Source: Minisyncoccota bacterium (GTDB lineage Bacteria; Patescibacteriota; Minisyncoccia; Phycocordibacterales; UBA12088). From it: a stretch of 64,000 bases of DNA. A program made the translations under genes and the position numbers. Of this stretch, positions 27,856-50,128 are shown piece after piece. The DNA lies in assembly GCA_041908795.1 (NCBI GenBank), contig JAYRER010000048.1, positions 18,413-82,412 on the forward strand, given 5' to 3'. The notes beneath the pieces were generated by a model. It saw nothing but the letters and a program-made list of their open reading frames with translations, ran no database searches and was not told the origin of the DNA. The first letter of the stretch is position 1. The number at the start of each line of letters is the position of its first letter.

Positions 27856-28610
27856 GCCGGGTCGCCAAACTGCCGATCGCGGAAGATGGCATCGACGTCT
27901 TTCTTCACCGCCACCACCCCGATTTTGTTCGACCCTTGGGGGAAGAAGCGGAGGAAGAGCCGGTGCCACCATGCGCTCGACTTGTCGATGTACACCATTG
28001 TCTCTACCGCAAACCCATGCTCGTTAAGAAGCTGGCGGAGTGCCGAGGGGCCGTAGAAAATTTTGTGCTGGGGTTGAGAGAGGAGGTTCTTCTCCGCGCG
28101 ATAGCTCGCGAAGTTGTCCTTCGCTTCCTCGTAGGAGAGCTCCGGCACATCGCCCTGCGTGTTGCGCTTCTTGAGGTAGACCTGCGCGAGCGAGAGCATG
28201 TCATGGACATTGGGTGTATCGAGGATGAGCATGCCGCCCTCGCGAAGCACCCGCGCACACTCGCGGATGATGGTGCCCGGGTGCCAGCTGTGCTCGATAA
28301 CCTGCCCCATGTAGATGACATCGAAGCTCTTGTCTTTGAGAACTTTTGAGAGGTCATGGAGGTCACCTGTGAGCTGGTTCTTATACCCAAGCTCTTTCGC
28401 CAAGTTTTCGTTGAGGTCGAGTCCCCAGTACTCACCCCCCTGTGCCGTCACGAGCTCGCGGAGCCCGAGGTTGCTGTTGCCGTCACCGAGGTTGCCCACG
28501 TCGAGGAGCTTCACCTTCTTGCCGCGGAGCACGTGGGACACAAATGTGGTCCGCGAGCGGAACACCTTTGCGTCGTTGATGCGGGTGAATGTGTCGCGTG
28601 ATATTTTCAT
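27852..28610 (-). CDS. Class I SAM-dependent methyltransferase, copy 2
   Basis: LLDVGNLGDG, VIEHSWHP, GGMLILDTPN. Confidence 0.8.
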   Translation of the reverse strand: MKISRDTFTRINDAKVFRSRTTFVSHVLRGKKVKLLDVGNLGDGNSNLGLRELVTAQGGEYWGLDLNENLAKELGYKNQLTGDLHDLSKVLKDKSFDVIYMGQVIEHSWHPGTIIRECARVLREGGMLILDTPNVHDMLSLAQVYLKKRNTQGDVPELSYEEAKDNFASYRAEKNLLSQPQHKIFYGPSALRQLLNEHGFAVETMVYIDKSSAWWHRLFLRFFPQGSNKIGVVAVKKDVDAIFRDRQFGDPA

Positions 28611-29689
28611 GCGGTTTTATTTTTTAGAAATGCCTCGATATGGTCCGCGATGCGCTGTGCGGTTTTCCCGTCCCAGAGCGGAATGGAAACCGTAGTGCGC
28701 GCAAGCGGGAGTATCGCTTGGTATGCGCTAAGTATAGAGTGCTTTGTGATACCCGCAACCGTATTGGTACCCATGGTAACGGTGGTGGGGCGTTCGGTCT
28801 CGGTGCGAAGCGTGAGGCACGGCACACCGAGGAACGAACTCTCCTCCTGTATACCCCCCGAGTCGGTGAGCACAAGCGCCGCGCTGTATTGGTACTCGAG
28901 CGACTCGCGGTAGGAGAGCGGCGGAAGGAGGGTGACGGCGGCTTTCAGTGTGTCCATGAGCCCGTGCGCGTGCGCCATCTTCTCGGTGCGCGGGTGGAGC
29001 GGCATGTAGATGCGCGCATCGCGGGAGAGTGTGGCGAGCGCGTCGAGGAGCTCGGAGAGCACCTCGCGCCGATCGACGTTCTCTGCGCGGTGGAGCGTTG
29101 CGAAGAAGTACCGCTCATTGCGCACGGTGAGCGTGGGGAGCGTTGCCGCGAGGAGGTCCATCATGATGTTGCCGACCACATGCACCTCGCCCGTCACCCG
29201 CTCCGCCGCAAGCCGCGCGACGTCTTCGTCGCAAACCGCGTAGAGGAGGTCTGCGAGGTGATCGGTCACCACGCGGTTTGCCTCCTCGGGCATCGCACGG
29301 TTGTAACTACGCAAACCCGCCTCAACGTGTGCGAGCGGTATGTGGAGCTTGCGTGCAACGAGCGCCCCCGCCAAGGTCGAGGTCACATCGCCGACCACAA
29401 CGACGAGAGACGGGCTGTTTGAGGCAAACTCATCGGCGAGCTTTTCTATAATTTCCGCAAGCTGGCGAACTTCGTCGCGCGCGTTGAGGGCGAACACCAC
29501 GTCGGGACGAATGCCGAACTCATCGAAGAACTGCGATGCCATACGCGCATCGTAGTGCTGGCCCGTATGGATAAGCTGTGCGGCAATGTGTCGCGTCGCA
29601 AGCGCGCGCATGAGCGGCGCCGCTTTCATGAAGTTGGGCCGTGCGCCAACGACGACCGCAACGTGACTTGGTTGTGCGTGTTGGCTCAT
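28607..29689 (-). CDS. wecB: UDP-N-acetylglucosamine 2-epimerase (non-hydrolysing), WecB/MnaA
   Basis: VVVGARPNFMKAAPL...HTGQHYD...HVEAGLRS...DSGGIQEE. Confidence 0.9.
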   Translation of the reverse strand: MSQHAQPSHVAVVVGARPNFMKAAPLMRALATRHIAAQLIHTGQHYDARMASQFFDEFGIRPDVVFALNARDEVRQLAEIIEKLADEFASNSPSLVVVVGDVTSTLAGALVARKLHIPLAHVEAGLRSYNRAMPEEANRVVTDHLADLLYAVCDEDVARLAAERVTGEVHVVGNIMMDLLAATLPTLTVRNERYFFATLHRAENVDRREVLSELLDALATLSRDARIYMPLHPRTEKMAHAHGLMDTLKAAVTLLPPLSYRESLEYQYSAALVLTDSGGIQEESSFLGVPCLTLRTETERPTTVTMGTNTVAGITKHSILSAYQAILPLARTTVSIPLWDGKTAQRIADHIEAFLKNKTA

Positions 29690-33479: not shown

Positions 33480-34169
33480 TTATGACACACGACCCATGTT
33501 TGTATACAGTACATGTTCCGCGCGGACGATATCGTCCGGCCTTCCAATGGGAAGCCAGAGGTCCTGCACCTCTACACGCACGGGCACGTCCCGTGCCAAG
33601 AGTGTGACGAGGTCGGTGAGGTAGAGCTCACCACCGTGGAGCGGTGCATTGTAGGAAAAAATTCGCTCGTCGAGCACCATGACGCCCGTTGAGATGAGGT
33701 TCGTGCTCGGGTGCATTGGCTTCTCCTCGATACCTAGGAGCGAGCCATCGCTCGTTAGCTTGAGCACACCAAAATCCTGCGGATGGTCGGTAGTTGCCGC
33801 GAGGAGGCCAAGCGGGTGGCGGAAGAGCCGCGCAAGCGCGGGCGCACCGTGGATGTCGTCCGCGTTCATAACGAGAAAGCGTCCGGTGAGAATGCTCTGC
33901 GCACTCTTGAGCGCCCCGCCGGTACCATGCGGGAGAAGCTGAGGCACGTACCGTATCCGCCGCCCTTTGTGCTCACCGCCCACGTACTCCTCAATGCGCT
34001 CACGCAGGTACTCCACCACCAGCACCACTTCATGTACCTCCTCGGGAAGCGCCTCAAGCACGTGCTCGATGATGGGTTTTCCGAGCACCCGCACCATCGG
34101 CTTGGGCACCGTGTCGGTTAACGGCCGAAGCCGCACTCCCTTCCCCGCCGCAAAAATAACGCACTGCAT
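33480..34169 (-). CDS. Sugar-phosphate nucleotidyltransferase (NTP_transferase family)
   Basis: MQCVIFAAGKGVRLRPLTDTVPKP (GxGxR motif of sugar-1-P nucleotidyltransferases). Confidence 0.8.
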   Translation of the reverse strand: MQCVIFAAGKGVRLRPLTDTVPKPMVRVLGKPIIEHVLEALPEEVHEVVLVVEYLRERIEEYVGGEHKGRRIRYVPQLLPHGTGGALKSAQSILTGRFLVMNADDIHGAPALARLFRHPLGLLAATTDHPQDFGVLKLTSDGSLLGIEEKPMHPSTNLISTGVMVLDERIFSYNAPLHGGELYLTDLVTLLARDVPVRVEVQDLWLPIGRPDDIVRAEHVLYTNMGRVS

Positions 34170-34271: not shown

Positions 34272-35225
34272 CTACACCTTGTGATACTCACGATACCAGC
34301 GCACGAAATTCTTCACCCCCTCTTCCACGCGCACTCTCGGCTCGAAGCCGAGAGTGCGCCGAGCCTTTGAAATATCCGCATAGGTTTCGAGTACGTCGCC
34401 TGGCTGAAGTGGCTTTTCTATGACGTTCGCTTTCTTCCCAATCTCTCGCTCTATAATTCGTACAAATTCTCGCAGATGCACCGGTGACCCGGTACCCAAA
34501 TTAAATATTTCAAATCCCTGAGGTCGCACATCGAGCGCTCGCATAAACCCCTCAACAATATCTTCAACGTACGTGAAATCTCGCTTCATGTCTCCACTGT
34601 TGTAAAGCTCAATCGACTCACCGGAAAGCATCGCTTTTGTAAACTTAAACAGTGCCATATCTGGGCGCCCCCATGGTCCGTAGACACTAAAGAAACGGAG
34701 CATCGTGATGTTCATGCCAAACAGGTCCTTGTATGAAAACGAGAGAAGTTCCACAGCTCGCTTTGATGCGGCATATATTGACATAGGGGTATCCACACGT
34801 GTCTCCTCAGAAAAGGGCATCTCAAGGTTTTTTCCATACACTGAGCTCGTTGAAGCCATTACAATGTGTGGTGTCTTATACCATCGAGCAAGCTCCAAAA
34901 TATTGAGCGAACCCACATAATTACTGGAGGCGTACACGAATGGGTTTTCCAACGAGTACCGCACACCGGCTTGAGCGGCGAGATGAGCAACCGCGTCAAA
35001 CGGACCATACTGTACCCACACTCGTTCAAGGCTAGCTCGATCGCTTATATCGACACATTCAAAGTGCGCGTCGGGTACTATCCTTTGCACTCGAGCCAGC
35101 TTCAACTGTGGGTCATAGTAGCCGTTGAGGTTATCTACGACGACCACACGATGACCCTCGCGTAGGAGACGTAGCGCAAGGGTATTGCCGATGAAGCCGG
35201 CACCTCCGGTAACAAGTAGTTTCAT
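34272..35225 (-). CDS. NAD-dependent epimerase (UDP-glucuronate 4-epimerase/CapI-like)
   Basis: LLVTGGAGFIGN, YAASK, YGPWGRPDMA (typical GAE/CapI motif). Confidence 0.8.
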   Translation of the reverse strand: MKLLVTGGAGFIGNTLALRLLREGHRVVVVDNLNGYYDPQLKLARVQRIVPDAHFECVDISDRASLERVWVQYGPFDAVAHLAAQAGVRYSLENPFVYASSNYVGSLNILELARWYKTPHIVMASTSSVYGKNLEMPFSEETRVDTPMSIYAASKRAVELLSFSYKDLFGMNITMLRFFSVYGPWGRPDMALFKFTKAMLSGESIELYNSGDMKRDFTYVEDIVEGFMRALDVRPQGFEIFNLGTGSPVHLREFVRIIEREIGKKANVIEKPLQPGDVLETYADISKARRTLGFEPRVRVEEGVKNFVRWYREYHKV

Positions 35226-35336: not shown

Positions 35337-36113
35337 GTGGAAATAGTGGTGATGTACCCGGCGTACTCGCAAGGAGTCATCCAAGACGACTTTTTGCTCA
35401 AGTTGCTACGTCATTTTAAAGAACCGAGCACAGAACCGAACACGTATCACATCGTACCCATCCTTAATGGGATGACAGAGGAGGATTACGAACGTTCTTT
35501 GAGCCAGTACAAGCAGACTGACTCAACTTTCGGAATCAAGGTGCACCCCTTGTATGCCGGAAAAACGACGGGTCTTTTTGGTACCTTGCTCTACGGATAT
35601 GGAGCGGTCGCAAAAACATACCCGAACGCAACAACTGTCCGAATGGATAACGCTGAACATTCCATTGCTGCCATCCCTGAATTGGCGACACCCGCAAGGG
35701 AAACGGGCGGAATGGTCGTTGGAGATCTCTGTTTCGACGATACGACCCTCCTGCCCAATACACCGGACTGGTACGCTCATGAAATAGTGTGGCCGGGCAT
35801 CGCTCATATGGTGAGCCCCACATCGCAACTACCCCTTTCGTGTGCGCATGGATTCCAAGCATTTGGCCCTCGAGTCCTTTCAAAAATCTTTGTTCGACTC
35901 AACCAAATGATTGAGTACATGTCCCTACGAGGCCCTCAACCAAAGTGGGGACTCGACTTTGGGATGGTGTGCTCCGCACTATTGGCGAACGTACCGGTTA
36001 ACATCTATCCGGTAAGGGCCGAATCACTTCGCAATAGGGATCTTGGGAAAATTGCCGACCAGCTTTCTGCTGCGGCGACGTGGGTCAGCGCCTACGCACA
36101 CATCAGGAAATAA
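35337..36113 (+). CDS. Hypothetical protein (possible divergent GT-A-like)
   Basis: GTG start with a strong SD (tgAAGGAGcgcgacaGTG). 258 aa with no recognisable motifs. Confidence 0.5.
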   Translation: MEIVVMYPAYSQGVIQDDFLLKLLRHFKEPSTEPNTYHIVPILNGMTEEDYERSLSQYKQTDSTFGIKVHPLYAGKTTGLFGTLLYGYGAVAKTYPNATTVRMDNAEHSIAAIPELATPARETGGMVVGDLCFDDTTLLPNTPDWYAHEIVWPGIAHMVSPTSQLPLSCAHGFQAFGPRVLSKIFVRLNQMIEYMSLRGPQPKWGLDFGMVCSALLANVPVNIYPVRAESLRNRDLGKIADQLSAAATWVSAYAHIRK

Positions 36114-36178: not shown

Positions 36179-37270
36179 CTACTTTGTTTCTTCGAGCTTC
36201 TTTGTGACATACTCGTACCTACCTTTGGGGTACTTGAATGCAGAGATTGAGTCGGAAGAGTATTTGTAGTGGTACATACTTGAAATTTTTGACCCGTCCA
36301 TCACAATCGGGTACGCGTAGTAGCGCCACACACCGGGACCGTTGGGAATCACGCCGCGCGAGAGGTGCCAAAATGTGAAGAATGCGACACGAACCATCCA
36401 CGCGGGAAGCGGCAGTACTCGCTTCCCCACAATTTCCGCCATCGTCTTTGCATAGACCGGCTCACCGGGAGGTGTGATGTTAAACACTTCGTAGTCATGT
36501 TTCACGCTGGGATCGAACGCGAGGAGGGAGACAATATTAACTACATCATCTTCATGAATAAACTGACGCACCCATAGACGAGTCGAGGGAACAAAAGAAA
36601 CAAGCAGAGTCACCAGACGGTAAAAGATATTTCCCTTGAGCTCACCCGCAAGCGCCGCTTGTAGTCCGAATCGAATACGCGCATACCGTCCACGAGGTCC
36701 AGTAATCGCCGCGGGGCGGACAACAGAAACAACGGGGGTATGGCCTCCATTCTTCATTCCCTTCTCGTACATAGAAGCAAGCTCGCGTTCCGATTCTATC
36801 TTTTCAACCGCATAGCTGTACACCTTTTCTCGCATTGGCTCCTCTTCTCTGAAGTGATGCTCGAAAGAGTTGGTCGCATACGCACCGTACACCGCTGCGG
36901 TGGAGAAGTGGATCAGTCGGGCGACATGCGGCGCCCCAAACGCATAGGAAAATATCTCTCTTGACCCATCAACATTCCACTTCCACCCGAGCGCGCGGTT
37001 CCCATAGAACTCTCGTATTTGCCACGCACAGTGCACCACCACATCGGGCACATACTTTTCAACCAAGGCGCGCCATGCTTCCGGGTCTGATGTATTCGCC
37101 TGCACCCATATGAGTTTAGAATGATTAGCCAACTCATTGGGCCGGGCTTCCTTATCAAGCCCAATAACCAACGAGACATCTTCACGCGCAACCCACTGAT
37201 CACAGAGCATTCCGCCCACGTAACCCGCCGCACCTGTGACCACTACTACATGCCCAGTAGCTTCCCTCAT
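36179..37270 (-). CDS. NAD-dependent epimerase/dehydratase family protein
   Basis: VVVTGAAGYVGG Rossmann motif, 363 aa. Confidence 0.7.
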   Translation of the reverse strand: MREATGHVVVVTGAAGYVGGMLCDQWVAREDVSLVIGLDKEARPNELANHSKLIWVQANTSDPEAWRALVEKYVPDVVVHCAWQIREFYGNRALGWKWNVDGSREIFSYAFGAPHVARLIHFSTAAVYGAYATNSFEHHFREEEPMREKVYSYAVEKIESERELASMYEKGMKNGGHTPVVSVVRPAAITGPRGRYARIRFGLQAALAGELKGNIFYRLVTLLVSFVPSTRLWVRQFIHEDDVVNIVSLLAFDPSVKHDYEVFNITPPGEPVYAKTMAEIVGKRVLPLPAWMVRVAFFTFWHLSRGVIPNGPGVWRYYAYPIVMDGSKISSMYHYKYSSDSISAFKYPKGRYEYVTKKLEETK

Positions 37271-37275: not shown

Positions 37276-38652
37276 CTATCCTACTCTAAAATGCGCCGCC
37301 ACGCGAACAAGTAGCGTTTTGATAGTCCGAAAAATTATCGCAAGGTCGAGCAACATGCTTCTATTCTTCACGTAGTAAAGATCATAGGCGAGTCGCACCT
37401 TACTCTCCTCAATAGATTGGGGGCTTATATGACCCGACAAGTACTGCTGATGGGTTTGTGCCCAGCCGGTGATTCCCGGTGGCACGGCATACCGTGCACG
37501 ATAAAAGGGAACGTGCTCAAGCAAGCGAACACCCAAACTCTCGATATCATTACGCGGACCGATTAGTGACATATTCCCCCAAAGAATGTTCCAAAGTTGT
37601 GGTAGCTCGTCCAGACTTGTAAAACGTAGGAAGCGTCCTACACGCGTCACCTTGTTTGAACCTTCCCCTTGCCAGTATCCTTTGTCGTTTTCAGACATTG
37701 TTCTTAATTTGTAGACCTTTAATACCTTCCCGTTCTCACCAAGCCTACGTTGCGATATAAATACCGACCCTCCATCGTCCAGTTTAATCATAATCATGAC
37801 TAGCGGGAGACACAATATGAAGAGCACCCCAAGCGGAACAGAGAGCATGATATCCGCACAACGCTTCGCCACTCGATACAGTCCGTCACTCGAAGAGGTG
37901 AGGTGTTGGAGAAACCACTCAAAACGAAGCGCGGAGAGCGGTACGCGATCAAACAATTCCTCGTATGCGGACTCGAAATCTATAAACGTGAGCCGCCGAG
38001 TACCAAACGAGTACTCCACAAGTGCTGCAATGAGATTGGCAAGCTTAGGGGTATACGGACTCGCTACAATAATGCTAATATCCTGATTCTTTACAACCTC
38101 GAGCGTTCGAGCAACGAAGTCCGGTGTCCTTTCAACCAAAGCGTAATCAACAATACGCACAAACTCATACTCGTACCGATAGTTGCCGTTTACCTCCCGA
38201 ACAAGCTCTTCTGCCTCCTGCCCCTCAGCAAGCAGGAGTGCCTTATACCTTTTCCGTGGGCGAAAGTGTGGGAAGAGTGTGAGACGCCACGCAACCATGA
38301 GAAGCGAGGAGACTCCGAGGTAAATGAGGAGATTGGTTTTGGGAGCAATGGGAAAAATTGGCAACAAGAAAAAAAGTGCCGCGGCACACAGCACATTTAT
38401 TGTTTGTGCGGTGAAAATGCGTCCAGGGAGACGTCGTTGGAGAATGACCGTATGCTTATCGTACAATCCTGCGATGAAGTATACTGCGAGCCAAACAGCG
38501 GAGAGAAAGGTGAATGCCGGAAGGTGATCCTCCAGTCGCACACGAGTGGGAAGCTCAAAATATCGCACAAACAGTGTGATATAAAGCGCCACAAGAAAAA
38601 ACGTAAGGTCTCCCAGCACAAGTATGAATAGTTCTCTCCGTCGTACATGCAT
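37276..38652 (-). CDS. Undecaprenyl-phosphate sugar phosphotransferase (bacterial sugar transferase, WbaP/WcaJ-like priming enzyme)
   Basis: N-terminal TM segments plus the C-terminal Bac_transf domain (KLRTM...[20 protein letters not shown]). Confidence 0.85.
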
Positions 38653-38694
38653 AGTGGAAATAGGTACTTGCTAGTGTATAGTATCGTTGTGCAT

Positions 38695-39885
38695 ATGGAA
38701 CCAACAAATACTCCTTCTGTCAAGAATCTGTGTATCGTGATCGCGATTACTAAGTCCAATTGGGGGGGTGCCCAACGCTATGTGCACGACCTCGCTGTTG
38801 CACTTCACGCGCAAGGCCACCATGTTCATGTTGTACTTGGTGGCACGGGGGAGCTTGCACAAAAACTCCGAGACGGAGGAATCGACGTATCCTCCGTTCC
38901 AACACTTACTCGCGACATTACCCTTACACAAGAGATCCGATCCTTTATTCATATCTATAAGGTGCTACGTACGATACGTCCTGACGTGCTACACCTTAAC
39001 AGCAGTAAAGCGGGAGGGCTCGGCGCACTTGCGGGAAGAGTGCTTGGGGTACCACGCATCATATTCACGGCACACGGGTGGGCATTTAACGAGCCGAGAT
39101 CCCGGTTCGTGTGTATATTGCTACGAACTCTGTACTGGATCACCATACTACTAGCTCACCGGACTATTGCCGTGTCGGCGGCCACCGCGCGTGACATCAT
39201 ACACCTGCCGTTCATGCGCTCACGTATCGAAGTGATACATGTTGGATGTACGTCTACAGCCATCCTTCCACGCAATGATGCACGCAGAGCTCTTGAGCAA
39301 ATGCATCCCTCGCTTGCGAGCATTTTTTCAAGTAACGCAAAAGTATTTGTAACTATCGCTGAGCTACACCCCATCAAGGGACACCATGTAATGCTTGAGG
39401 CTTTTTCACGCACACAGATGCACACTCCCTCAATGTACTGGGTGCTTATGGGGGATGGTGAACTTCGAGATGAACTACAGACGACCATTAAAAAATGGAA
39501 CCTGAATGAAAAAGTGTTGCTTCTGGGTCACGTGCGTGATGCGAGTCGCTACCTAAACGCATTCGACTACTTTGGACTTCCCTCACTTTCAGAGGGTCTT
39601 GCATACGTTCTCCTTGAGGCGGGGCTTGCAAATCTTCCTGTGATTGCCACGTGTGTGGGCGGCATACCAGAAGTTATAACCGATGGGAAAACCGGTCTCC
39701 TGGTACCCTCAAAAGATGCGAGTGCGCTTGAGAAGGCTCTCACCACACTTATAGCCGACACGCATCTGGCGTATTCGCTTGGCAGTGCTCTCAATACCCA
39801 AGTGCGAACCAACCACTCTCTAGCACAAATGGTTGCGCGCATCGTGGATGTCTACCACAATCAGCAATTCTTCAAAGAGGCTTAA
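38695..39885 (+). CDS. Glycosyltransferase family 4 (GT-B)
   Basis: LLEAGLANLPVIATCVGGIPEV. Start trimmed to 38695 (MEPTN). Confidence 0.8.
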   Translation: MEPTNTPSVKNLCIVIAITKSNWGGAQRYVHDLAVALHAQGHHVHVVLGGTGELAQKLRDGGIDVSSVPTLTRDITLTQEIRSFIHIYKVLRTIRPDVLHLNSSKAGGLGALAGRVLGVPRIIFTAHGWAFNEPRSRFVCILLRTLYWITILLAHRTIAVSAATARDIIHLPFMRSRIEVIHVGCTSTAILPRNDARRALEQMHPSLASIFSSNAKVFVTIAELHPIKGHHVMLEAFSRTQMHTPSMYWVLMGDGELRDELQTTIKKWNLNEKVLLLGHVRDASRYLNAFDYFGLPSLSEGLAYVLLEAGLANLPVIATCVGGIPEVITDGKTGLLVPSKDASALEKALTTLIADTHLAYSLGSALNTQVRTNHSLAQMVARIVDVYHNQQFFKEA

Positions 39886-40748
39886 GGATGTAGGATCTCA
39901 GTCCCGTACACACCTTCCAGAAGATCCGTGTCCTTGCCTGAGTCTCGGAGCAGTTCTATGTTCTTTTTTTCAAGCGCCCGTAGGAGTGTGATTGAATTTT
40001 TTCCATCGATATGTTTCTCAAAATAGTTTGCAAGTGCCGCAAAATCTTTGATGAAACAATGCCCACCTGCGCCCCGACCCAACACCGCACTTTTGTGTCC
40101 ACTCATATCCACAGGGTGCATGTGACTACTGCCTATTCGGGTGTCGGCTGACATTGCTTGTGCGAGCACTTCGTAGTCAGCTCCCACATTCTGACAGAGG
40201 TCGTACAGGAGGTTCATAAAAACCACCTTGGTAAAAAGGAAGCAGTTGCCACCGTACTTGATGAGTTCCGCGGTTATCGCGTCAGTTACCAGTTCGTAAG
40301 GTGCCCGGGGAAGTACCGCAAGTACTTTTCGAGCAGCGTCATGGTACACGTCTGTATCCTCTGGAATGCCCAGTATGTTTCTTTCCGGATTCGCTGCGTC
40401 GTAGGCAGCTGACTTCTCACGTAAAAACTCAGGGGAGTGGAGAATGAGTAGTGTGGGGAAATCTTGCTGCAGTCTGCTTGTCGTACCCGGCAGTATCGTT
40501 GACTTAATAACCGCAATCGCGTTAGGTCCTACCTTGGTGAGGGCATCACGCAATTGACGATCATTGAATCCCTCTGGTGTTGTTGGAGTAGGAACAGCCA
40601 CGAAGACGATTTCGCATTTTGATACCGCCTCCCCATTTTGTGCGTACGGCTCCTCAAGCGCATACCGTATCACCTGATACCCGCGCCGTTCAAAATCATC
40701 GGCGTAATTCTTCCCAATAAACCCTTGGCCTATGCATCCAATCTTCAT
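39882..40748 (-). CDS. Truncated UDP-glucose/UDP-ManNAc 6-dehydrogenase-like protein (N-terminal NAD and central domains only), paralog A
   Basis: KIGCIGQGFIG, IKSTILPGTT, SPEFLREKSA, catalytic-Cys motif GRGAGGHCFIKD. Only 288 aa, so it lacks the roughly 100-aa C-terminal UDP-binding domain. Confidence 0.7.
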   Translation of the reverse strand: MKIGCIGQGFIGKNYADDFERRGYQVIRYALEEPYAQNGEAVSKCEIVFVAVPTPTTPEGFNDRQLRDALTKVGPNAIAVIKSTILPGTTSRLQQDFPTLLILHSPEFLREKSAAYDAANPERNILGIPEDTDVYHDAARKVLAVLPRAPYELVTDAITAELIKYGGNCFLFTKVVFMNLLYDLCQNVGADYEVLAQAMSADTRIGSSHMHPVDMSGHKSAVLGRGAGGHCFIKDFAALANYFEKHIDGKNSITLLRALEKKNIELLRDSGKDTDLLEGVYGTEILHP

Positions 40749-40750
40749 AC

Positions 40751-41674
40751 CTATTTGGTTGCCTTCGGCTTTTTCTTCACTCTTTGCACTTTTCCCTCAA
40801 GACCGGCCCCTTTTCCGTACACACCTTCCAAAAGATCAATATCTTTTTCGGTCATCCTCAGCAAGTGGGTGTTCTTTCGTTCCATTGAGTAGAACACTTC
40901 CGCACCACGAGAATCCCCCGTTGCTTGCTCATACCATCGTGCAAACGCGGCCATATCCTTGATGTAGCAAGGTCCTCCTGCTCCACGACCGGGTACCGCG
41001 CCCGGGTGTCCGCTTGTGTGTACCGGATTGTTGTAGTAGTGCGCTCGAGATGAGAGATAAGGATCTGCATCAAGTGCACGCTTAAGCTCATCCCATGTAG
41101 CTCCAGTGGCTTGAGCCGCATCATACATTAGATTCGTAAATAATATTCGCATATACCCATGAAGATTATGTGCGTACTTGATGAGTTCCGCTTCATGCGA
41201 CGTACATACTTGACTGTGTACACTGGGAGGAAAATGCGACAGTACGGTTTGTGCGTGTTTTTTTGTACTTACCCCGGGAACAAACCCCACGATATTCATG
41301 ATGGGGTATGCCGCATCCCATCCCGCAGTCTTCGCAAGCAAGAACTCGGGAGAAAACATGACGCGAACATTAGGATACTGACTTTGCAGCACTTCCGTGG
41401 TTCCAGGAAGCAGGGTCGACTTGATTACTGCTATTTTTCCCTTTCCGACAAGAGCGATCGATTCGCGTACGATAGAATCATCGAATCCCTTAGGGGTGGT
41501 GGGGGTCGGTACCGCAATAAGAACTATGTCGCAAAGCGCTATTCTTGACTTGTTGTCGCGGTACGCATCTTCAAGCGAGTAGCGCACGGTCTCATAGCCA
41601 CGTTTTTCAAAATCATCGGCATAGCTCCTCCCAACAAACCCTTGGCCGATAAATCCTATAAGAGGTTGTGCCAT
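40751..41674 (-). CDS. Truncated UDP-sugar 6-dehydrogenase-like protein, paralog B (tandem duplicate)
   Basis: IGFIGQGFVG, IKSTLLPGTT, SPEFLLAKTA, GRGAGGPCYIKD. 307 aa, colinear with paralog A. Confidence 0.7.
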   Translation of the reverse strand: MAQPLIGFIGQGFVGRSYADDFEKRGYETVRYSLEDAYRDNKSRIALCDIVLIAVPTPTTPKGFDDSIVRESIALVGKGKIAVIKSTLLPGTTEVLQSQYPNVRVMFSPEFLLAKTAGWDAAYPIMNIVGFVPGVSTKKHAQTVLSHFPPSVHSQVCTSHEAELIKYAHNLHGYMRILFTNLMYDAAQATGATWDELKRALDADPYLSSRAHYYNNPVHTSGHPGAVPGRGAGGPCYIKDMAAFARWYEQATGDSRGAEVFYSMERKNTHLLRMTEKDIDLLEGVYGKGAGLEGKVQRVKKKPKATK

Positions 41675-41979
41675 AAAAAATATCGATTATTAGCTACTCA
41701 AAAAGATTAAATCCGGTGCGCTGGGTATTCTACCCCAAAAATCGCAAAATTGCTCGCGCGAGCTTGTCGGGGTCGTAACGAGTGAGTGTCCGACGCGGAG
41801 GGTCACCCCTCTTTGGCTTCTAGAGCTCTGCTGAATGGAGGGTGAAGTGTCCCTATGGTAACGATATGGGGAAGTTTTTCTCCGCAGGTCGCTGATTGTT
41901 TCGACGCATAACGAACCACCCTAGCACAGTCACATTCGGCTGCTACTGGAGCGGTGCGAGGTGCGTTATGATGTGACAG

Positions 41980-42987
41980 ATGAATGCTCGCACCATTATC
42001 CCAACCCTTATGCACGCAACAGGGTTGCCGCACATAATGAGACTGCGTCAACGAAACCGACTGGTTGTCGTGCTCTACCACGGCGTCACAGATGATATTG
42101 GTACGGGAATTTTCAACTACCGCGGAAAGTTTGTTTCAACACATACGTTTAATAATCATCTTGACTACTTTACACGTCACCACACCGTACTTGGACTCGA
42201 TGAAGCCGTACGTCTACTGTTTTCAGAATCTCCATTGCCTTCCTACCCTCTCTGTATCACATTTGATGATGGGTACAGGAATTTTTTTACCCACGCAGCT
42301 CCGCTTCTCAAGCAGTACCGAATGGCGGCAACCATGTTCCTCACCACCTCATTTATCGACACAAAGAAGCCCTTGTGGGTGGACCGCCTCGAGTACGCCG
42401 CGGGCCATGGAATCCACCCGACACTCCCTGACCGTACCGCGCGCGCAAAATTGGATGCGCAGATACGCTCAAGACTCAAGCAACTCCCGGACCTTGAGCG
42501 CGAATCCACGCTTTCTACATTTGAGGAGAAGGTCGCTGCAAAACTTGTCGATTTTGATGAGTCAAGGAGCGTATACGCACCCCTCTCGTGGAGTGAGGTG
42601 GAAACGTTGGAAAAAGAGGGTATGATGTTTGGTGCCCACAGTGTGCACCACCCTATTCTGACTCGCCTTACACCCGAGGCGCTGCGCGTAGAAGTGGGCG
42701 AATCAAGGGAATGTGTCACGAGGCGCTGCAAGAAATCGTCTTCGGTATTTGCCTATCCGAACGGACAATCGGGTGATTATGATGAGGTAGTCACGCGCGA
42801 AGTGCGCGCGTGCGGATTCACCGCCGCACTGACTACGATTCCCGGCAACAACAAAAAGACCACCAGCCCCTATGCGCTCAAACGCTACACGATGAGCACA
42901 CGGGACGTGGGGGCCTCATTTATTCAAAACGTTACTGGCACTAACACAGCACTTTCATGTCTACTACAACAACTCGGGCGGAGGTGA
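41980..42987 (+). CDS. Polysaccharide deacetylase (CE4), copy 4
   Basis: CITFDDGYRNFFTHAAPLLKQY...HSVHHP. Confidence 0.75.
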   Translation: MNARTIIPTLMHATGLPHIMRLRQRNRLVVVLYHGVTDDIGTGIFNYRGKFVSTHTFNNHLDYFTRHHTVLGLDEAVRLLFSESPLPSYPLCITFDDGYRNFFTHAAPLLKQYRMAATMFLTTSFIDTKKPLWVDRLEYAAGHGIHPTLPDRTARAKLDAQIRSRLKQLPDLERESTLSTFEEKVAAKLVDFDESRSVYAPLSWSEVETLEKEGMMFGAHSVHHPILTRLTPEALRVEVGESRECVTRRCKKSSSVFAYPNGQSGDYDEVVTREVRACGFTAALTTIPGNNKKTTSPYALKRYTMSTRDVGASFIQNVTGTNTALSCLLQQLGRR

Positions 42988-43742
42988 GTTTTTTCAATGA
43001 GCGCAGTCGCTCGTACCTTGATGAGTACGGAAAAGAGACTCCCGAGGGTTTTTCATTCCGTATGCGTCGCGAAGGGGTACTACGGGTACTGCCAGACGGA
43101 GAGGGTAAGCGCGTGCTTGATATTGCCGGCGGACCCGGTGTGATGATAGCCGGTTTGCGTAAAAAAGGATACGAGGTTGACTGTGTGGATGCGGCTCCTG
43201 AAATGGTTGCGCTTGCGGCCCAAGAGGCGCGTGGCGACGCTAAGGTTCACACACACGTCGAAGACGTGCTCGCTCTTTCATACAAAAATGGCACGTTTGA
43301 CGCGCTGACTGCCATGGGTCTTGTTGAGTACCTTGATGATCAGGACAGGGCGATGCGAGAAATGGCACGGGTACTCAAACCTGGAGGTGTTGCGATTATC
43401 ACGTTCCCCAATCGTTACTCTCTATGGCGTTTCTGGGCAGCAACACTGCGGACCGTTTTCTACCCACTGCGTACGCTGCACAAAAAACTGACCGGGAAGC
43501 CGGTGTACCCTATACGTCATCGAGAGTACACACCGGAACAGGCACGAGCGTACATGCGCATACACGGACTTGTGCCTGCGCAGACGATTTACTACAACTA
43601 CAAGCTCATGCCATTTCCTCTCGATAAATTTTTTCCACGATTGACCGTGATTCAGTCGAGCCTCTGTGAAGGTAGAGGGGGAGTATTCTCTCGTTTCTTC
43701 GCCACCGCTTTTATTGTGGAGGGGGTGAAGCGGGCTCTGTAG
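42957..43742 (+). CDS. Class I SAM-dependent methyltransferase, copy 4
   Basis: VLDIAGGPG, LVEYLDD, PGGVAIITFPN. Overlaps PDA4 by 31 nt. Confidence 0.75.
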   Translation: MSTTTTRAEVSFFNERSRSYLDEYGKETPEGFSFRMRREGVLRVLPDGEGKRVLDIAGGPGVMIAGLRKKGYEVDCVDAAPEMVALAAQEARGDAKVHTHVEDVLALSYKNGTFDALTAMGLVEYLDDQDRAMREMARVLKPGGVAIITFPNRYSLWRFWAATLRTVFYPLRTLHKKLTGKPVYPIRHREYTPEQARAYMRIHGLVPAQTIYYNYKLMPFPLDKFFPRLTVIQSSLCEGRGGVFSRFFATAFIVEGVKRAL

Positions 43743-44919
43743 TTTCCTCTATCGAAGAGGTCACGTCGTCAGTGATCCCCCTACTCCTCAGGTAGCAGGT
43801 CTCGAATGATTCTTTCATGGCAGCGAGGTACTCTTCATCCGTAGTCTGAAATTTGTCCTTGACTGCGGTTGCAGCAGCTTCTTTCAATTGTACTCGTAGT
43901 GGAAAACTTTCAATAAGGCTACGAAGTTTGTTGGCGAGACACTCAATGTCTCCCACAGGACACGCCAAGCAATGTACCTTATCTATCAATACCGAACCCA
44001 CGACGCCGACATTGGTCGTCACGATAGGGCAATGGAGCATCGCCGCCTCAACAAGGGTCCTACCAAACCCCTCAAACTCTGAGGTGAGGAAGTAGACATC
44101 GGCACTTTGGTAGTAGCATGCAACATTTTCCTTCCACCCCTCAAACACCACACGATTCTCAAGGTGTAGCTCTTTGACAAGCGAAACCAGTCTTTTTTTC
44201 TCCTTACCCTCTCCCACTATAATTAACCCAACACTCGGATAGTGAGACGCAAGAAGGTTGAAAGCACTAATCGCATCTTCAATACGCTTCTCCGAAGTAA
44301 GTCGAGACACCATGAGCACAGTGAATTTAAAGTAAGGATACTTTTCGTTAAGGTTTGTTACGGGAGGTTTTGTTGGATCAAGATTTGAAAAATCTACCCT
44401 TACAGGAAGCACCGTGAGGACCGCCCCCTCAAGAAGTCCCCGTTGTTCGAATGACTGGCGCACATGGTCAGAGACAATACGCAGACACTGTGTTCGTGCA
44501 ACAAGCCAATTAGCGAGATGCAATCGAATCCTATTGAGCATCCCACTCTCAACAAACTCGGGTGCAAACGGATCGGTGTGCACTTGGAGTTGAAGGGGAA
44601 GTTTGAGCTCTCGCGCGATAAGATACCCCGCCAAACCACACTCAAACGGATCTTGAGCGGAGACGAGATCCACCCGCTCTATGTTCTTCCCCATACGATA
44701 CGCGTCGTACACATAGAGGAGAGGATGACGACTGTTGGTGGCATACACCCATACGTTTGGGGCGATCTGTTGTTTTAAGAGACCTGTACCCCTGCGGGTA
44801 AACACAATAATATGGAGCTCATCAACAATAGCCCCTTGCTTTGTAATGCGCCGCCTAGCCTCGCTCTCGGCATCAAATAGTTTTCGCTCGCTCCCCACCA
44901 AGAGTACATTCATACCCAT
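43711..44919 (-). CDS. Glycosyltransferase family 4 (GT-B)
   Basis: EGFGRTLVEAAMLHCPIVTTNVG (GT4 EX7E-like region). Confidence 0.8.
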   Translation of the reverse strand: MGMNVLLVGSERKLFDAESEARRRITKQGAIVDELHIIVFTRRGTGLLKQQIAPNVWVYATNSRHPLLYVYDAYRMGKNIERVDLVSAQDPFECGLAGYLIARELKLPLQLQVHTDPFAPEFVESGMLNRIRLHLANWLVARTQCLRIVSDHVRQSFEQRGLLEGAVLTVLPVRVDFSNLDPTKPPVTNLNEKYPYFKFTVLMVSRLTSEKRIEDAISAFNLLASHYPSVGLIIVGEGKEKKRLVSLVKELHLENRVVFEGWKENVACYYQSADVYFLTSEFEGFGRTLVEAAMLHCPIVTTNVGVVGSVLIDKVHCLACPVGDIECLANKLRSLIESFPLRVQLKEAAATAVKDKFQTTDEEYLAAMKESFETCYLRSRGITDDVTSSIEETTEPASPPPQ

Positions 44920-45913
44920 AGAGTACCAGAAAATCCCTTGCTATGTCACGGTATGTTCTTCCCCATGGTAGCGCGGCGGCACGTGCGTGCCACATCCTGC
45001 GCTCATTCGAGTCAGCCATTCGAATAACTGCAGCTACGATATCTTCAAGCGAAAGGGGATCAACAAATAGCACACTGTCCTTGAGTGACTCACAGTATCC
45101 GGTCTCTTTGGTGAGAATAACTGGCACACCAAAAGAGAGTGCTTCAAGTGCAATATTTGGTGTTACCTCCGAAAGGGAGGGGAGCACGAGGGCCCACGCA
45201 CGCCGCATCACTCGATGTGCTTCTTCTTGCGGAACGTTGGCGAGAGTCACCAGCTCTATTTCAGGACATGTTGCGCGCGCACGCTCGAATGCTCGTGCGA
45301 GTCGCGCTGTGTTCTTGAGAAAAAGCGGCCTCCCCACCCACACGAAACGCTTACTAGGTGGCTCCTCTGGTACACTGCGTACAGGTTGCACATTCTCGAT
45401 AACTGCGGTTCGCTCGTACGGTATGGTATATGCGGCAACTGTGAGAGCCTGTTGCCATTGAGAAGAAAATACCACTCTGGTGGGTAGCGCGAACACCACT
45501 CTGCGAGTGATACACTTGAGTATTCGCTCATAGAAACTTAGCGGTGGTGAGGTCTGGTAAAATGTTGAAAGTGGTACCTCACACCTGGTACGCTCGACAA
45601 AACGTTCCCACAGGAAATCTCCACCACTACGCACAAATACACACGTACGAAAGAGGCGTGCCATGAGCACTGTAGGGATCGCGACACTCCACGTATCTAG
45701 GGAAATCACTAAGTCCGCTGTTTTTAGGGGTTTCCATAATCCTGCCGCAAACGCAACATGACGCACCACCTTCGGGTACATGCGATAGGTTGAAAACGAA
45801 ACAAGTGAAACTGTATGTCCTTCTGCCACAAACCCATCCCGTAACCCTTCAGAGTAGTAGGAAGGACCTCCCGCCTGCGGAGGACTCAACGGAGTAGCAA
45901 TAACAACGTGCAT
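44873..45913 (-). CDS. Glycosyltransferase (GT-B, GT4-like)
   Basis: LEALSFGVPVILTKETG. The track start is TTG at 45928. The in-frame ATG at 45913 is preferred. Confidence 0.7.
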   Translation of the reverse strand: MHVVIATPLSPPQAGGPSYYSEGLRDGFVAEGHTVSLVSFSTYRMYPKVVRHVAFAAGLWKPLKTADLVISLDTWSVAIPTVLMARLFRTCVFVRSGGDFLWERFVERTRCEVPLSTFYQTSPPLSFYERILKCITRRVVFALPTRVVFSSQWQQALTVAAYTIPYERTAVIENVQPVRSVPEEPPSKRFVWVGRPLFLKNTARLARAFERARATCPEIELVTLANVPQEEAHRVMRRAWALVLPSLSEVTPNIALEALSFGVPVILTKETGYCESLKDSVLFVDPLSLEDIVAAVIRMADSNERRMWHARAAALPWGRTYRDIARDFLVLYGYECTLGGERAKTI

Positions 45914-45926
45914 AACTACAGTATAC

Positions 45927-45959
45927 AAAAAAAGAAAGCGCCGTCATTCAAAACGGCGC
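45927..45959 (-). terminator. Rho-independent terminator (GCGCCGT-cattcaaa-ACGGCGC hairpin followed by TTTCTTTTTTT on the minus strand)
   Basis: Read directly. It terminates minus-strand transcription coming from the rplB side, immediately upstream of the glycosyltransferase start. Confidence 0.6.
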
Positions 45960-47337: not shown

Positions 47338-47339
47338 AG

Positions 47340-47741: not shown

Positions 47742-47745
47742 AGTG

Positions 47746-48429: not shown

Positions 48430-48434
48430 GGTGG

Positions 48435-49403: not shown

Positions 49404-49440
49404 ATCAACAGTAGTTCGCCACCACCGAGGAGTACGCAAA

Positions 49441-50108: not shown

Positions 50109-50128
50109 AGTGAGAAAATAGTAGAAGA

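What the first reader, a model, noticed from the sequence alone, without database searches (positions are those of the whole stretch)
39882..41674. Tandem paralogous, C-terminally truncated UDP-sugar 6-dehydrogenase-like genes
Both proteins (288 and 307 aa) keep the NAD-binding GxGxxG, the KST(V/L)LPGTT and SPEFLxE blocks and the catalytic Cys motif GGxC(F/Y)IKD of Ugd/WecC-family dehydrogenases. Both end about 100 aa early and lack the UDP-binding C-terminal domain. Two such genes in tandem next to WecB (the usual WecC partner) suggest a heteromeric, non-canonical dehydrogenase, or one acting on a non-nucleotide (for example lipid-linked) sugar.
Basis: partly seen in the sequence, partly recalled or inferred. 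Interest (0 to 1): 0.55.

Follow-up and report, generated by a model that had tools for sequence, protein, structure and literature searches.

The report
Minimal two-domain sugar 6-dehydrogenase gene pair
Two adjacent genes encode intact members of a large, uncharacterised Patescibacteria family of UDP-glucose-dehydrogenase-like enzymes that naturally lack the usual nucleotide-binding domain yet keep every catalytic residue, so they are a short enzyme form rather than broken genes.

Summary
The two ORFs are real: A is 39882-40748(-), 288 aa, and B is 40751-41674(-), 307 aa. They are 47% identical and 2 nt apart. Both carry the UGDH NAD-binding and central domains and lack the C-terminal UDP-binding domain. 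They are not truncations. Hundreds of listed homologues, nearly all from Patescibacteria MAGs, are mostly 250-340 aa. AlphaFold models are compact and confident (pLDDT 96.8 and 94.5). No missing domain is encoded nearby.

Seventeen of the 18 residues invariant in nucleotide-sugar dehydrogenases are kept, including Cys/Lys/Asn/Asp/Thr/Glu. Only Lys320, which lies in the lost domain, is absent. Tyr10 and Asp29 are replaced.

A and B belong to two old subfamilies. A keeps the glucose-recognition residues of UGDH, while B has a remodelled sugar pocket and tends to sit near polysaccharide deacetylases. Most loci carry one copy, so an obligate heteromer is unlikely.

Neighbours and gene fusions (GT4, GT2, TviC-like epimerase) place the family in envelope-glycan synthesis. 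The gene "next to" the pair is a GT4, not WecB, which lies 10 kb away.

The most likely function is two uronic-acid-forming dehydrogenases with different sugar specificities. Substrate handle and cofactor remain untested. This is a new variant of a known kind, of moderate interest.

The parts
40751..41674 (-). Gene B: 307-aa short sugar 6-dehydrogenase-like protein of the B-type subfamily, the upstream gene of the pair. Catalytic set: T87, E110, K166, N170, C236, D240. Sugar pocket altered: H169, G173, Y206, A114. It ends in an 18-aa Lys-rich disordered tail.
   Evidence: ORF. PF03721 and PF00984 only. All family-invariant residues present. Subfamily signature. AF2 pLDDT 94.5, with residues 290-307 at pLDDT 54-58.
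39882..40748 (-). Gene A: 288-aa short sugar 6-dehydrogenase-like protein of the A-type (mainstream) subfamily. Catalytic set: T84, E107, K164, N168, C231, D235. It keeps the UGDH glucose-pocket residues L171, R204, E111, F108 and D202.
41675..41979 (.). 305-bp divergent intergenic region between B and the deacetylase gene. It is the presumed promoter region of the B-A operon (inferred only).
   Evidence: Gene layout. No sigma-70 consensus match was found in 39500-42200, so the promoter is not identified.
38647..39885 (+). GT4 glycosyltransferase, convergent with A and overlapping it by 4 nt.
   Evidence: PF13692, PF00534 and PF13439. NCBIfam GT4-type hits only, all below their curated cutoffs.
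41980..42987 (+). Polysaccharide deacetylase (PF01522), divergent from B. This class of gene is enriched next to B-type dehydrogenases.
   Evidence: Pfam 81.5 bits. Found near 6 of 18 B-only loci against 1 of 110 A-only loci, Fisher p=2e-5, with some duplicate loci.
42957..43742 (+). Class I SAM methyltransferase in the same glycan cluster.
   Evidence: Pfam. Methyltransferases recur in related loci.
43711..44919 (-). GT4 glycosyltransferase on the same strand, upstream of the pair. It is the orthologue of the GT4 domain that is fused to the short dehydrogenase in other Patescibacteria.
   Evidence: Pfam. 180 bits to the fused N-terminal GT4 domains. Fusions documented.
44873..45928 (-). Second upstream GT4-type glycosyltransferase.
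   Evidence: Pfam. The same GT4-GT4 order occurs upstream of B in relatives L001, L082 and L154.
37276..38652 (-). Polyprenyl-phosphate glycosyl-1-phosphate transferase, the initiating enzyme of a lipid-linked glycan pathway.
   Evidence: PF02397 179.9 bits. TIGR03025 275.8 bits, just under its cutoff of 295.55.
36179..37270 (-). SDR-family NAD-dependent epimerase/dehydratase of unassigned specificity.
   Evidence: PF01370. Only weak NCBIfam hits.
34272..35225 (-). SDR nucleotide-sugar 4-epimerase-like protein. It is the orthologue of the gene that lies between B and A in the closest relatives, and is a candidate UDP-uronate 4-epimerase.
   Evidence: PF01370 and PF16363. PDB hits include the UDP-glucuronate 4-epimerases 6ZL6 (150.7 bits) and MoeE5 (142.9 bits). 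448 bits to the SDR between B and A in L154/L155.
33480..34169 (-). Sugar-1-phosphate nucleotidylyltransferase, which would supply an NDP-sugar.
   Evidence: NCBIfam TIGR03992 180.6 bits and the AglF-type UTP-glucose-1-P uridylyltransferase model at 123.5 bits, both below cutoff.
28607..29689 (-). WecB, the non-hydrolysing UDP-GlcNAc 2-epimerase. It belongs to the wider glycan region but lies about 10 kb from the pair.
   Evidence: TIGR00236 269.3 bits against a cutoff of 210.15.

Best explanation
Shown:
- A and B are intact, co-oriented genes 2 nt apart.
- Each encodes a full-length member of a large, essentially Patescibacteria-restricted family of two-domain ('minimal') sugar 6-dehydrogenases.
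- Relative to canonical UDP-glucose 6-dehydrogenase, the family lacks the C-terminal nucleotide-binding domain and a ~30-residue N-domain excursion.
- The family keeps 17 of the 18 residues that are invariant in nucleotide-sugar dehydrogenases.
- It sits in envelope-glycan gene clusters.
- A and B belong to two distinct subfamilies that usually occur singly.

Inferred:
- Each enzyme binds NAD(P)+ in the Rossmann domain.
- Each oxidises the C6 hydroxymethyl of a hexose twice, to a uronic acid. The aldehyde is trapped as a thiohemiacetal on the catalytic Cys (C231 in A, C236 in B), oxidised to a thioester, then hydrolysed. Lys/Asn stabilise the oxyanion and Asp/Thr activate water, as in UGDH.
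- A acts on a gluco-configured substrate, most likely UDP-glucose, because it keeps the Leu211, Arg244 and Glu145 equivalents.
- B acts on a different sugar, possibly a 2-acetamido sugar, because those pocket residues are replaced and B-type genes associate with deacetylases.
- The products pass to the SDR 4-epimerase and the GT4 transferases of the cluster.
- The pair is therefore two enzymes of different specificity in one operon, not an obligate heteromer.

Unresolved:
- How the substrate's nucleotide or phosphate is held without the C domain. Candidates are the family-invariant R225 in RGAGGxC and the conserved tail K272-D273...Y281-G282.
For: Intactness:
- The best 120 homologues of each protein are mostly 270-340 aa; all carry PF03721 + PF00984 and none is listed with PF03720.
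- Across the 237 listed homologues the median length is 292 aa.
- There are 147 clusters at E<=1e-30 in the 1.84-billion-protein representative library, nearly all 250-310 aa.
- 33 columns are invariant across 149 sequences with 52% mean column identity.
- The AF2 models are compact, with pLDDT 96.8 and 94.5.
- Orthologues of A and B in the nearest relatives are equally conserved, at 68-70% and 69-72% identity.

No hidden domain:
- tblastn and phmmer with canonical C-terminal domains find nothing in the window or in 1.78 Mb of related loci. The only hits are two separate full-length genes.

Chemistry:
- Equivalents of Thr83, Ser117, Thr118, Pro140, Glu141, Glu201, Lys204, Asn208, Asn219, Gly257, Gly258, Cys260, Asp264 and Asn287 are invariant or nearly so. 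The roles of these residues are taken from PMC4794789.
- The family profile matches UGDHs best: S. pyogenes 102 bits, against 49 bits for a UDP-ManNAc DH.

Subfamilies and specificity:
- Clustering and signature positions separate the two types. The specificity roles of index positions 355, 359 and 393 come from PMC4794789.

Copy number:
- 110 A-only, 18 B-only and 6 A+B loci.

Pathway context:
- GT4 genes occur in 58 of 74 loci, SDR epimerases in 32, GtrA in 15 and AsnB-like amidotransferases in 7.
- The family is fused to a TviC-like UDP-sugar 4-epimerase, to GT4 at either end, and to GT2.
- The order B-SDR-A is found in L154/L155.
Against: - The domain that binds UDP in every characterised family member is missing, together with Lys320 (UDP diphosphate) and Arg327 (NAD pyrophosphate).
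- Tyr10, which is 98% conserved and assigned to thioester hydrolysis, is F or W here.
- The Asp29 position, 99% conserved and binding the NAD adenosine ribose, is occupied by R28-Y29-A30. Kinetics, cofactor and even the final step may therefore differ.
- Both proteins score below the curated TIGR03026 cutoff: 125.4 and 79.9 bits against 189.8.
- Canonical full-length NDP-sugar dehydrogenases sit within 4-10 kb of short ones in two loci. This suggests the short form is not simply the local UGDH.
- No biochemical data or literature on the family was found.
- The specificity assignments for A and B rest on residue analogy and neighbourhood statistics that include some duplicate loci.
Confidence: 0.6

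Rival explanations
1. The short dehydrogenases do not use a free nucleotide sugar. Having lost the UDP-binding domain, they oxidise C6 of a sugar presented another way. That could be polyprenyl-phosphate-linked glucose, a glycan or glycolipid just built by the partner GT4, or a UDP-sugar held by the GT4 itself.
For: - The nucleotide-binding domain and Lys320 are lost, which should leave the active site open.
- GT4 genes are over-represented immediately beside the gene: 55 of 148 flanking positions, against roughly one in five at positions 2-5.
- Independent fusions exist to GT4 at either end and to GT2.
- The fused GT4 has an orthologue upstream in this window.
- GtrA-type lipid-sugar flippase-like genes lie directly downstream in several loci.
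- An ArnD-type deacetylase family is found near B-type genes.
- Canonical dehydrogenases co-occur with short ones in two loci.
Against: - Four independent fusions join the short dehydrogenase to SDR 4-epimerases of the TviC/WbpP/GalE type, which act on UDP-sugars.
- An SDR epimerase lies immediately downstream of B, or between B and A, in several lineages.
- Residues that contact the UMP ribose (Gly257 equivalent) and the beta-phosphate region (Glu145 equivalent) are kept. A new invariant Arg (R225) sits in that same loop.
- GT4 is the commonest transferase family in such clusters anyway.
- The proteins show no membrane-binding feature.
Confidence: 0.2
2. A and B form an obligate heterodimer, a non-canonical heteromeric dehydrogenase. 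A's Arg204 reaches into B's active site and so complements the residue that B lacks.
For: - The 2-nt spacing suggests coupled translation.
- The B-then-A order is conserved in three lineages.
- In canonical UGDH the Arg244 equivalent acts across the dimer interface. B-type proteins lack this residue while A-type proteins keep it.
Against: - 110 loci carry only the A type and 18 only the B type within 8-10 kb flanks, so each type must work alone.
- In L154/L155 and L001 an epimerase gene separates B and A, and in L082 a 377-nt gap does.
- Both proteins keep the complete catalytic set.
Confidence: 0.12
3. The family has moved to different chemistry. It might carry out a single two-electron oxidation or reduction like the equal-sized beta-hydroxyacid dehydrogenases. 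Alternatively it might release an aldehyde, or pass the thioester to a nucleophile other than water.
For: - Tyr10, assigned to thioester hydrolysis, is replaced by F or W.
- AsnB-like amidotransferases occur in some clusters.
Against: - The residue set specific to four-electron oxidation (Cys260, Lys204, Asn208, Asp264, Thr118, Glu141 equivalents) is invariant across the family. This would be unnecessary for simple beta-hydroxyacid chemistry.
- Sequence similarity to beta-hydroxyacid dehydrogenases is marginal: PF03446 at 22 bits.
Confidence: 0.06
4. The pair is a decayed or split canonical ugd. A frameshift or an adjacent ORF supplies the missing UDP-binding domain, or the genes are pseudogenes.
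For: Only the absence of PF03720.
Against: - There is no room: a 2-nt gap to B on one side and a 4-nt overlap with a convergent GT4 on the other.
- No C-domain similarity is found anywhere in the 64 kb window or in 1.78 Mb of related loci.
- The listed homologues are consistently short: best 120 hits mostly 270-340 aa, more distant clusters 250-310 aa.
- Residue conservation is strong and the models are confident.
Confidence: 0.02

Closest known systems
Bacterial UDP-glucose 6-dehydrogenase (Ugd/HasB/Cj1441; PDB 1DLI, 3PLR, 7KWS)
   Same: - The Rossmann NAD domain and the central helical dimerisation domain are shared.
- The catalytic Cys/Lys/Asn/Asp/Thr/Glu set is identical.
- The A type also keeps the glucose-pocket Leu211, Arg244, Glu145 and Phe142 equivalents.
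- This group gives the best sequence and fold matches.
- The setting is the same: glycan clusters with uronate epimerases and glycosyltransferases.
   Different: - The C-terminal UDP-binding domain is absent (PF03720, Lys320, Arg327).
- A ~30-residue alpha2-alpha3-beta3 excursion of the N domain is deleted.
- Tyr10 is F or W, and the Asp29 position is replaced by R-Y-A.
- An 8-residue insertion and an invariant Arg precede GGxC.
- A family-specific tail, KDxDLLxGVYG, is present.
- Both proteins fall below the TIGR03026 cutoff.
TviB/TviC and WbpO/WbpP pairs (UDP-HexNAc 6-dehydrogenase plus UDP-HexNAcA 4-epimerase)
   Same: - A dehydrogenase gene is followed directly by, or fused to, a TviC/WbpP-like SDR 4-epimerase.
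- This is a plausible model for the B-type enzyme, given its altered 2''-pocket and its association with deacetylases.
   Different: - TviB and WbpO are full-length three-domain enzymes.
- Sequence similarity of the short family to the UDP-HexNAc dehydrogenase group is weak: 33-49 bits against 102 bits for UGDH.
- The specificity of B is untested.
WecC / Cap5O UDP-ManNAc dehydrogenases
   Same: - Same superfamily and catalytic Cys mechanism.
- A shares the 'GGHC' His.
- A WecB gene exists in the wider region.
   Different: - The defining Arg152{259}, Pro155{262}, Arg211{359} and His242{391} are all absent. A has F108, E111, L171 and D202; B has F111, A114, G173 and D204.
- NCBIfam WecC model scores are 15.5 and 11.7 bits against a cutoff of 459.
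- WecB is 10 kb away and is not enriched near the family.
Two-domain beta-hydroxyacid dehydrogenases (3-hydroxyisobutyrate dehydrogenase type)
   Same: - Same size (about 290 aa) and the same Rossmann plus all-alpha two-domain architecture.
   Different: - Sequence identity is only 13-19%.
- The short family carries the UGDH catalytic constellation and UGDH motifs, and its nearest sequence relatives are UGDHs.

Membership tests
Nucleotide-sugar 6-dehydrogenases (UDPG_MGDP_dh; TIGR03026) | N-terminal NAD-binding Rossmann domain with GxGxxG (PF03721) | tested here: met
   PF03721 scores 58 bits (A) and 37.5 bits (B), above the cutoff of 27, but only profile positions ~70-180 align. GQGFIG / GQGFVG is present. 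hhalign shows the first beta-alpha-beta aligned, with a 30-residue deletion after beta2.
Nucleotide-sugar 6-dehydrogenases (UDPG_MGDP_dh; TIGR03026) | Central helical dimerisation domain (PF00984) | tested here: met
   63.1 and 38.9 bits against a cutoff of 25.4.
Nucleotide-sugar 6-dehydrogenases (UDPG_MGDP_dh; TIGR03026) | C-terminal nucleotide (UDP/GDP)-binding domain (PF03720), with the invariant Lys320 and the conserved Arg327 | tested here: not met
   No PF03720 hit. Alignments to PDB and canonical profiles stop at about residues 242-270. No such domain is found in the window or in related loci.
Nucleotide-sugar 6-dehydrogenases (UDPG_MGDP_dh; TIGR03026) | Catalytic residues Cys260, Lys204, Asn208, Asp264, Thr118 and Glu141 (S. 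pyogenes numbering) | tested here: met
   In A: C231, K164, N168, D235, T84, E107. In B: C236, K166, N170, D240, T87, E110. These are invariant across the family. Roles are taken from PMC4794789.
Nucleotide-sugar 6-dehydrogenases (UDPG_MGDP_dh; TIGR03026) | Tyr10 (98% conserved, thioester hydrolysis) and Asp29 (99% conserved, binds the NAD adenosine ribose) | tested here: not met
   Position 10 is F in 155, W in 43 and Y in 37 of 235 sequences. The Asp29 position falls in the invariant R28-Y29-A30 motif.
Nucleotide-sugar 6-dehydrogenases (UDPG_MGDP_dh; TIGR03026) | Score above the curated NCBIfam cutoff | tested here: not met
   TIGR03026 scores 125.4 bits (A) and 79.9 bits (B) against a cutoff of 189.8.
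Nucleotide-sugar 6-dehydrogenases (UDPG_MGDP_dh; TIGR03026) | NAD+-dependent four-electron oxidation of an NDP-hexose to an NDP-uronic acid | not testable with these tools
   Requires an enzyme assay.
UDP-ManNAc dehydrogenase (WecC/Cap5O) | Group-specific Arg{259}, Pro{262}, Arg{359} and His{391}, plus the NCBIfam equivalog score | tested here: not met
   A has F108, E111, L171 and D202. B has F111, A114, G173 and D204; definitions are. NF008286 scores 15.5 and 11.7 bits against a cutoff of 459.
Unnamed Patescibacteria short (two-domain) UGDH-like family | Length of about 270-310 aa; G-Q-G-[FW]-I-G; R28-Y29; R-G-A-G-G-x-C; tail K-D-x-D-L-L-x-G-V-Y-G | tested here: met
   Both A and B carry every invariant and nearly invariant column of the 149-sequence alignment.
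Beta-hydroxyacid dehydrogenases (NAD_binding_2, PF03446) | Sequence membership in PF03446 / the 3-hydroxyisobutyrate dehydrogenase family | tested here: inconclusive

The most novel reading that the evidence does not exclude
The short family is a UGDH-derived enzyme that has given up the nucleotide handle. It would oxidise C6 of a sugar that is lipid-phosphate-linked, already transferred to a glycan, or held by a docked or fused GT4 glycosyltransferase. Uronic acids in the Patescibacteria envelope would then be made after, or during, glycosyl transfer rather than at the UDP-sugar level. In genomes like this one, two subfamilies (A and B) would do this for two different sugars.
Probability: 0.2. 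Interest if true: 0.75.

Novelty: new variant of a known kind. Interest (0 to 1): 0.5.

Why it matters
All characterised UDP-glucose/GDP-mannose-type dehydrogenases use a dedicated C-terminal domain to hold the nucleotide. This work identifies a large, conserved family across Patescibacteria that dispenses with that domain while keeping the full catalytic machinery.

If these proteins still act on UDP-sugars, they define a minimal scaffold for four-electron sugar oxidation. That is useful for enzymology and for engineering, and it would correct the automatic 'UDP-glucose 6-dehydrogenase' or 'hypothetical' labels now attached to them.

If they do not act on UDP-sugars, they point to a new route to uronic acids in the poorly understood cell envelopes of these ultra-small, mostly uncultured bacteria.

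The A and B subfamily signatures give testable specificity determinants.

Tried and rejected
- Pseudogene or frameshift: rejected on gene spacing, the absence of C-domain similarity, the consistently short homologues and the confident models.
- Split gene supplying the C domain in trans: phmmer and a small profile built from three canonical C domains found no stand-alone ORF in 1.78 Mb of loci.
- Homology of the conserved tail to canonical motif 3 (the Lys320 loop): MAFFT suggested it. Neither hmmsearch against PDB nor hhalign against a canonical profile extends past residues ~242-270, so this is not supported.
- WecB/WecC pairing: WecB is not adjacent and is not enriched near the family.
- A first regex classification of subfamilies was mis-registered. 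It was replaced by HMM-aligned signature columns.
- Literature searches for a short or CPR UGDH returned nothing relevant. The BceC Tyr10 paper is not held.
- No sigma-70-like promoter was found upstream of B.
- A heterodimer or GT4-complex model, and mapping of R225/K272 onto the active site, could not be attempted. The structure tool handles single chains only and does not expose coordinates.

Full report
**Observation.** The window holds two same-strand ORFs exactly where reported. A is 39882-40748(-), 288 aa. B is 40751-41674(-), 307 aa. B is upstream; its TAG stop is followed by GT and then the ATG of A. The proteins are 47% identical (E=3e-92). Both match the UDP-glucose/GDP-mannose dehydrogenase N domain (PF03721, only profile positions ~70-180) and central domain (PF00984). 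Neither matches the C-terminal UDP-binding domain PF03720. The NAD motif (GQGFIG / GQGFVG), KST[IL]LPGTT and GG[HP]C[FY]IKD are present. 'SPEFLxE' holds for A only, since B reads SPEFLLA. The claim 'next to WecB' is wrong. The flanking genes are a convergent GT4 glycosyltransferase and a divergent polysaccharide deacetylase. The only WecB (TIGR00236, 269 bits) is at 28607-29689, about 10 kb away.

**Not a truncation.** There is no space for a missing domain: a 2-nt gap on one side and a 4-nt overlap with the GT4 on the other. tblastn with E. coli Ugd finds only the two short genes in the 64 kb, and nothing for its C-terminal third. The best 120 database relatives of each protein are mostly 270-340 aa. 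All carry PF03721 + PF00984 and none is listed with PF03720. Across the 237 listed homologues the median length is 292 aa. In a library of 1.84 billion cluster representatives, 147 clusters match at E<=1e-30. Nearly all of these are 250-310 aa; the longer ones are fusions. Eighty species-representative genome loci that encode a relative are, by record title, almost all Patescibacteria/Parcubacteria/Paceibacteria MAGs. A 149-sequence alignment with 52% mean column identity has 33 invariant columns. AlphaFold2 gives compact two-domain models with pLDDT 96.8 and pTM 0.92 for A. For B the pLDDT is 94.5, and only the 18-residue Lys-rich tail is disordered.

**Relation to canonical enzymes.** The family's nearest relatives in sequence and fold are true UDP-glucose 6-dehydrogenases.
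- phmmer against PDB gives E down to 9e-20.
- The family profile scores 102 bits to S. pyogenes UGDH, against 49 bits to a UDP-ManNAc dehydrogenase and about 33 bits to UDP-HexNAc types.
- Foldseek gives TMq 0.75-0.80 and TMt about 0.5.

Freas et al. (PMC4794789) list 18 residues invariant in nucleotide-sugar dehydrogenases. Seventeen have invariant or nearly invariant equivalents in the short family and in both A and B: G7, G9, G12, T54, S83, T84, P106, E107, E161, K164, N168, N179, G228, G229, C231, D235 and N263 in A numbering. The exception is Lys320, which binds the UDP diphosphate and lies in the lost domain.

Further differences from the canonical enzymes:
- Tyr10 (98% conserved, thioester hydrolysis) is F, W or Y in the ratio 155:43:37.
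- The Asp29 position (99% conserved, NAD ribose) falls within an invariant R28-Y29-A30 motif. This may mean altered cofactor binding, possibly NADP+, but that is inference.
- A ~30-residue excursion after beta2 is deleted.
- The loop before the catalytic Cys carries an 8-residue insertion and an invariant Arg (RGAGGxC replaces F/Y-G-Y/F-G-G).
- A conserved tail, KDxDLLxGVYG, ends the protein. This tail shows no detectable homology to the canonical C domain.
- Both proteins fall below the curated TIGR03026 cutoff.

**Two subfamilies, usually single-copy.** Clustering of 231 relatives splits them into an A-like group (137) and a B-like group (94). The groups have sharp signatures.
- A type: H104, R123, G167, L/F171, R204-I-G206, H209.
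- B type: F/Y104, no R123, invariant H169 (KYAHN), G173, Y/M/L in place of R204, Y214.

Three of these columns are the known specificity positions of the superfamily. They are index 355 (Ala207), index 359 (Leu211, at the sugar C2'') and index 393 (Arg244, which reaches across the dimer to the glucose 2''-OH). A keeps the UGDH-type Leu, Arg and Glu145 equivalents. B replaces them with Gly, Tyr and Ala.

I classified every family gene in 150 fetched loci by HMM-aligned signature columns. This gave 110 loci with A only, 18 with B only, 15 with other types and 6 with both. The six represent three independent lineages: this organism (window and L153), its relatives L001/L154/L155, and L082/L083. 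B is always upstream of A. In L154/L155 an SDR epimerase gene lies between B and A; L001 has a ~950-bp gap at the same place. That epimerase is the orthologue (448 bits) of window gene 34272-35225. Because each type normally occurs alone, an obligate A/B heteromer is unlikely.

B-type genes lie near PF01522 polysaccharide deacetylases far more often than A-type genes do: 6 of 18 loci against 1 of 110, Fisher p=2e-5, with some duplicate loci. That is also the arrangement here. This hints that B handles an N-acetylated sugar.

**Context and fusions.** In 74 genome loci the commonest neighbours within five genes are GT4 glycosyltransferases (58 loci). They occupy 55 of 148 immediately flanking positions. 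Next come SDR nucleotide-sugar epimerases (32 loci), GtrA-like proteins (15), methyltransferases, Wzy_C/TPR proteins (8), AsnB-like amidotransferases (7) and Ddl (6).

The window fits the same picture. Nearby genes are a sugar-1-P nucleotidylyltransferase (33480-34169), an SDR epimerase with UDP-glucuronate 4-epimerase relatives (34272-35225), a priming phosphoglycosyl transferase (37276-38652) and several GT4s.

The short dehydrogenase is fused to several partners in other genomes:
- a GT4 at the N terminus (L018, L034, L064, L067, P0239, P0245);
- a GT1-family domain at the C terminus (P0244, P0250);
- a GT2 (P0320);
- a TviC/WbpP-like UDP-sugar 4-epimerase (L020, L060, P0287, P0384);
- D-Ala-D-Ala ligase (P0241);
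- APS kinase (P0333).

The fused N-terminal GT4 has its orthologue in window gene 43711-44919 (180 bits). The epimerase fusions and the B-epimerase-A operons argue that the products are nucleotide-sugar uronates, as in TviB/TviC or Ugd/UDP-GlcA epimerase pathways. The GT fusions are compatible with that, and also with oxidation coupled to transfer.

**Mechanism proposed.** The following is shown:
- the genes are intact;
- they belong to a large short family;
- the catalytic residue set is conserved;
- they sit in glycan clusters;
- there are two subfamilies.

The following is inferred. Each enzyme oxidises the C6-OH of a hexose twice with NAD(P)+. It does so through a Cys-bound thiohemiacetal and thioester, yielding a uronic acid. 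A works on a gluco-configured substrate, most simply UDP-glucose. B works on a different sugar, possibly a 2-acetamido sugar. The products feed the SDR 4-epimerase and the GT4s. How the nucleotide or phosphate handle is bound without the C domain is unresolved. The invariant R225 and the K272-D273 tail are candidates, but coordinates could not be inspected.

**Evidence that tempers this.** The universal UDP-binding domain is missing. Tyr10 and Asp29 are replaced. Two loci carry a canonical 441- or 467-aa NDP-sugar dehydrogenase within 4-10 kb of a short one, which suggests the two forms are not redundant. A substrate that is not a free nucleotide sugar therefore remains a live alternative at about 0.2. 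It could be lipid-linked, glycan-bound or GT4-held.

**Novelty.** I found no paper describing a UGDH-type enzyme without the nucleotide-binding domain, or this Patescibacteria family. Source annotations are generic: 'UDPglucose 6-dehydrogenase', 'hypothetical protein', 'NAD(P)-binding domain-containing protein'. I rate it a new variant of a known kind. The tandem pair itself is the juxtaposition of two subfamily members in one glycan operon, and it is seen in only a few lineages.

Noticed in passing
window 20001-32000: GC content is about 0.58-0.61 here, against about 0.50 in the flanking glycan-cluster DNA. The block holds WecB (28607-29689), a GT2, an FAD oxidoreductase and other glycan genes. 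It may be a compositionally distinct, possibly acquired, segment.
   Followed up: no
window 35337-36113 (+): A 258-aa ORF inside the glycan cluster has no Pfam or NCBIfam match.
   Followed up: partly
window 40751-40804 (B residues 290-307): B ends in an 18-residue Lys-rich tail (...KVQRVKKKPKATK). The tail is predicted disordered (pLDDT 54-58) and is absent from most family members.
   Followed up: partly
L018:260-2221, L034:6909-8879, L064:6906-8867, L067:3225-5246; L020:1831-3588, L060:5921-7753; P0239-P0250, P0287, P0320, P0333, P0384, P0241: The short dehydrogenase is recurrently fused to other domains: GT4 at either end, GT2, a TviC-like SDR 4-epimerase, D-Ala-D-Ala ligase and APS kinase.
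   Followed up: partly
L149:19292-20617 and L108:13698-15101: Canonical full-length NDP-sugar dehydrogenases (441 and 467 aa, TIGR03026 at 301 and 288 bits) lie within 4-10 kb of a short family member on the same Patescibacteria contigs.
   Followed up: partly
L001:5050-6096, L082:8977-9990, L154:1321-2352: A CofD/YvcK-like gene (PF01933) sits immediately upstream of the B-type dehydrogenase in the relatives that carry the B/A pair. It is absent from that position in the window.
   Followed up: no
L018:3161-3952; L050:6421-7551: Additional divergent paralogues occur in two loci. L018 has a 263-aa, even shorter copy beside a GT4-fused copy. L050 has a 376-aa copy with an N-terminal extension about 1 kb from an A-type gene.
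   Followed up: no
L082:12221-13048 and P0333: A sulfotransferase gene lies directly after the B/A pair in L082, and an APS-kinase fusion exists elsewhere (P0333). This hints that some of these glycans are sulfated.
   Followed up: no
window 46492-55424 (-) and 1952-2041 (-): A ribosomal-protein / EF-Tu / EF-G operon directly follows the glycan cluster. A single tRNA-Ser(GCT) lies at 1952-2041.
   Followed up: no
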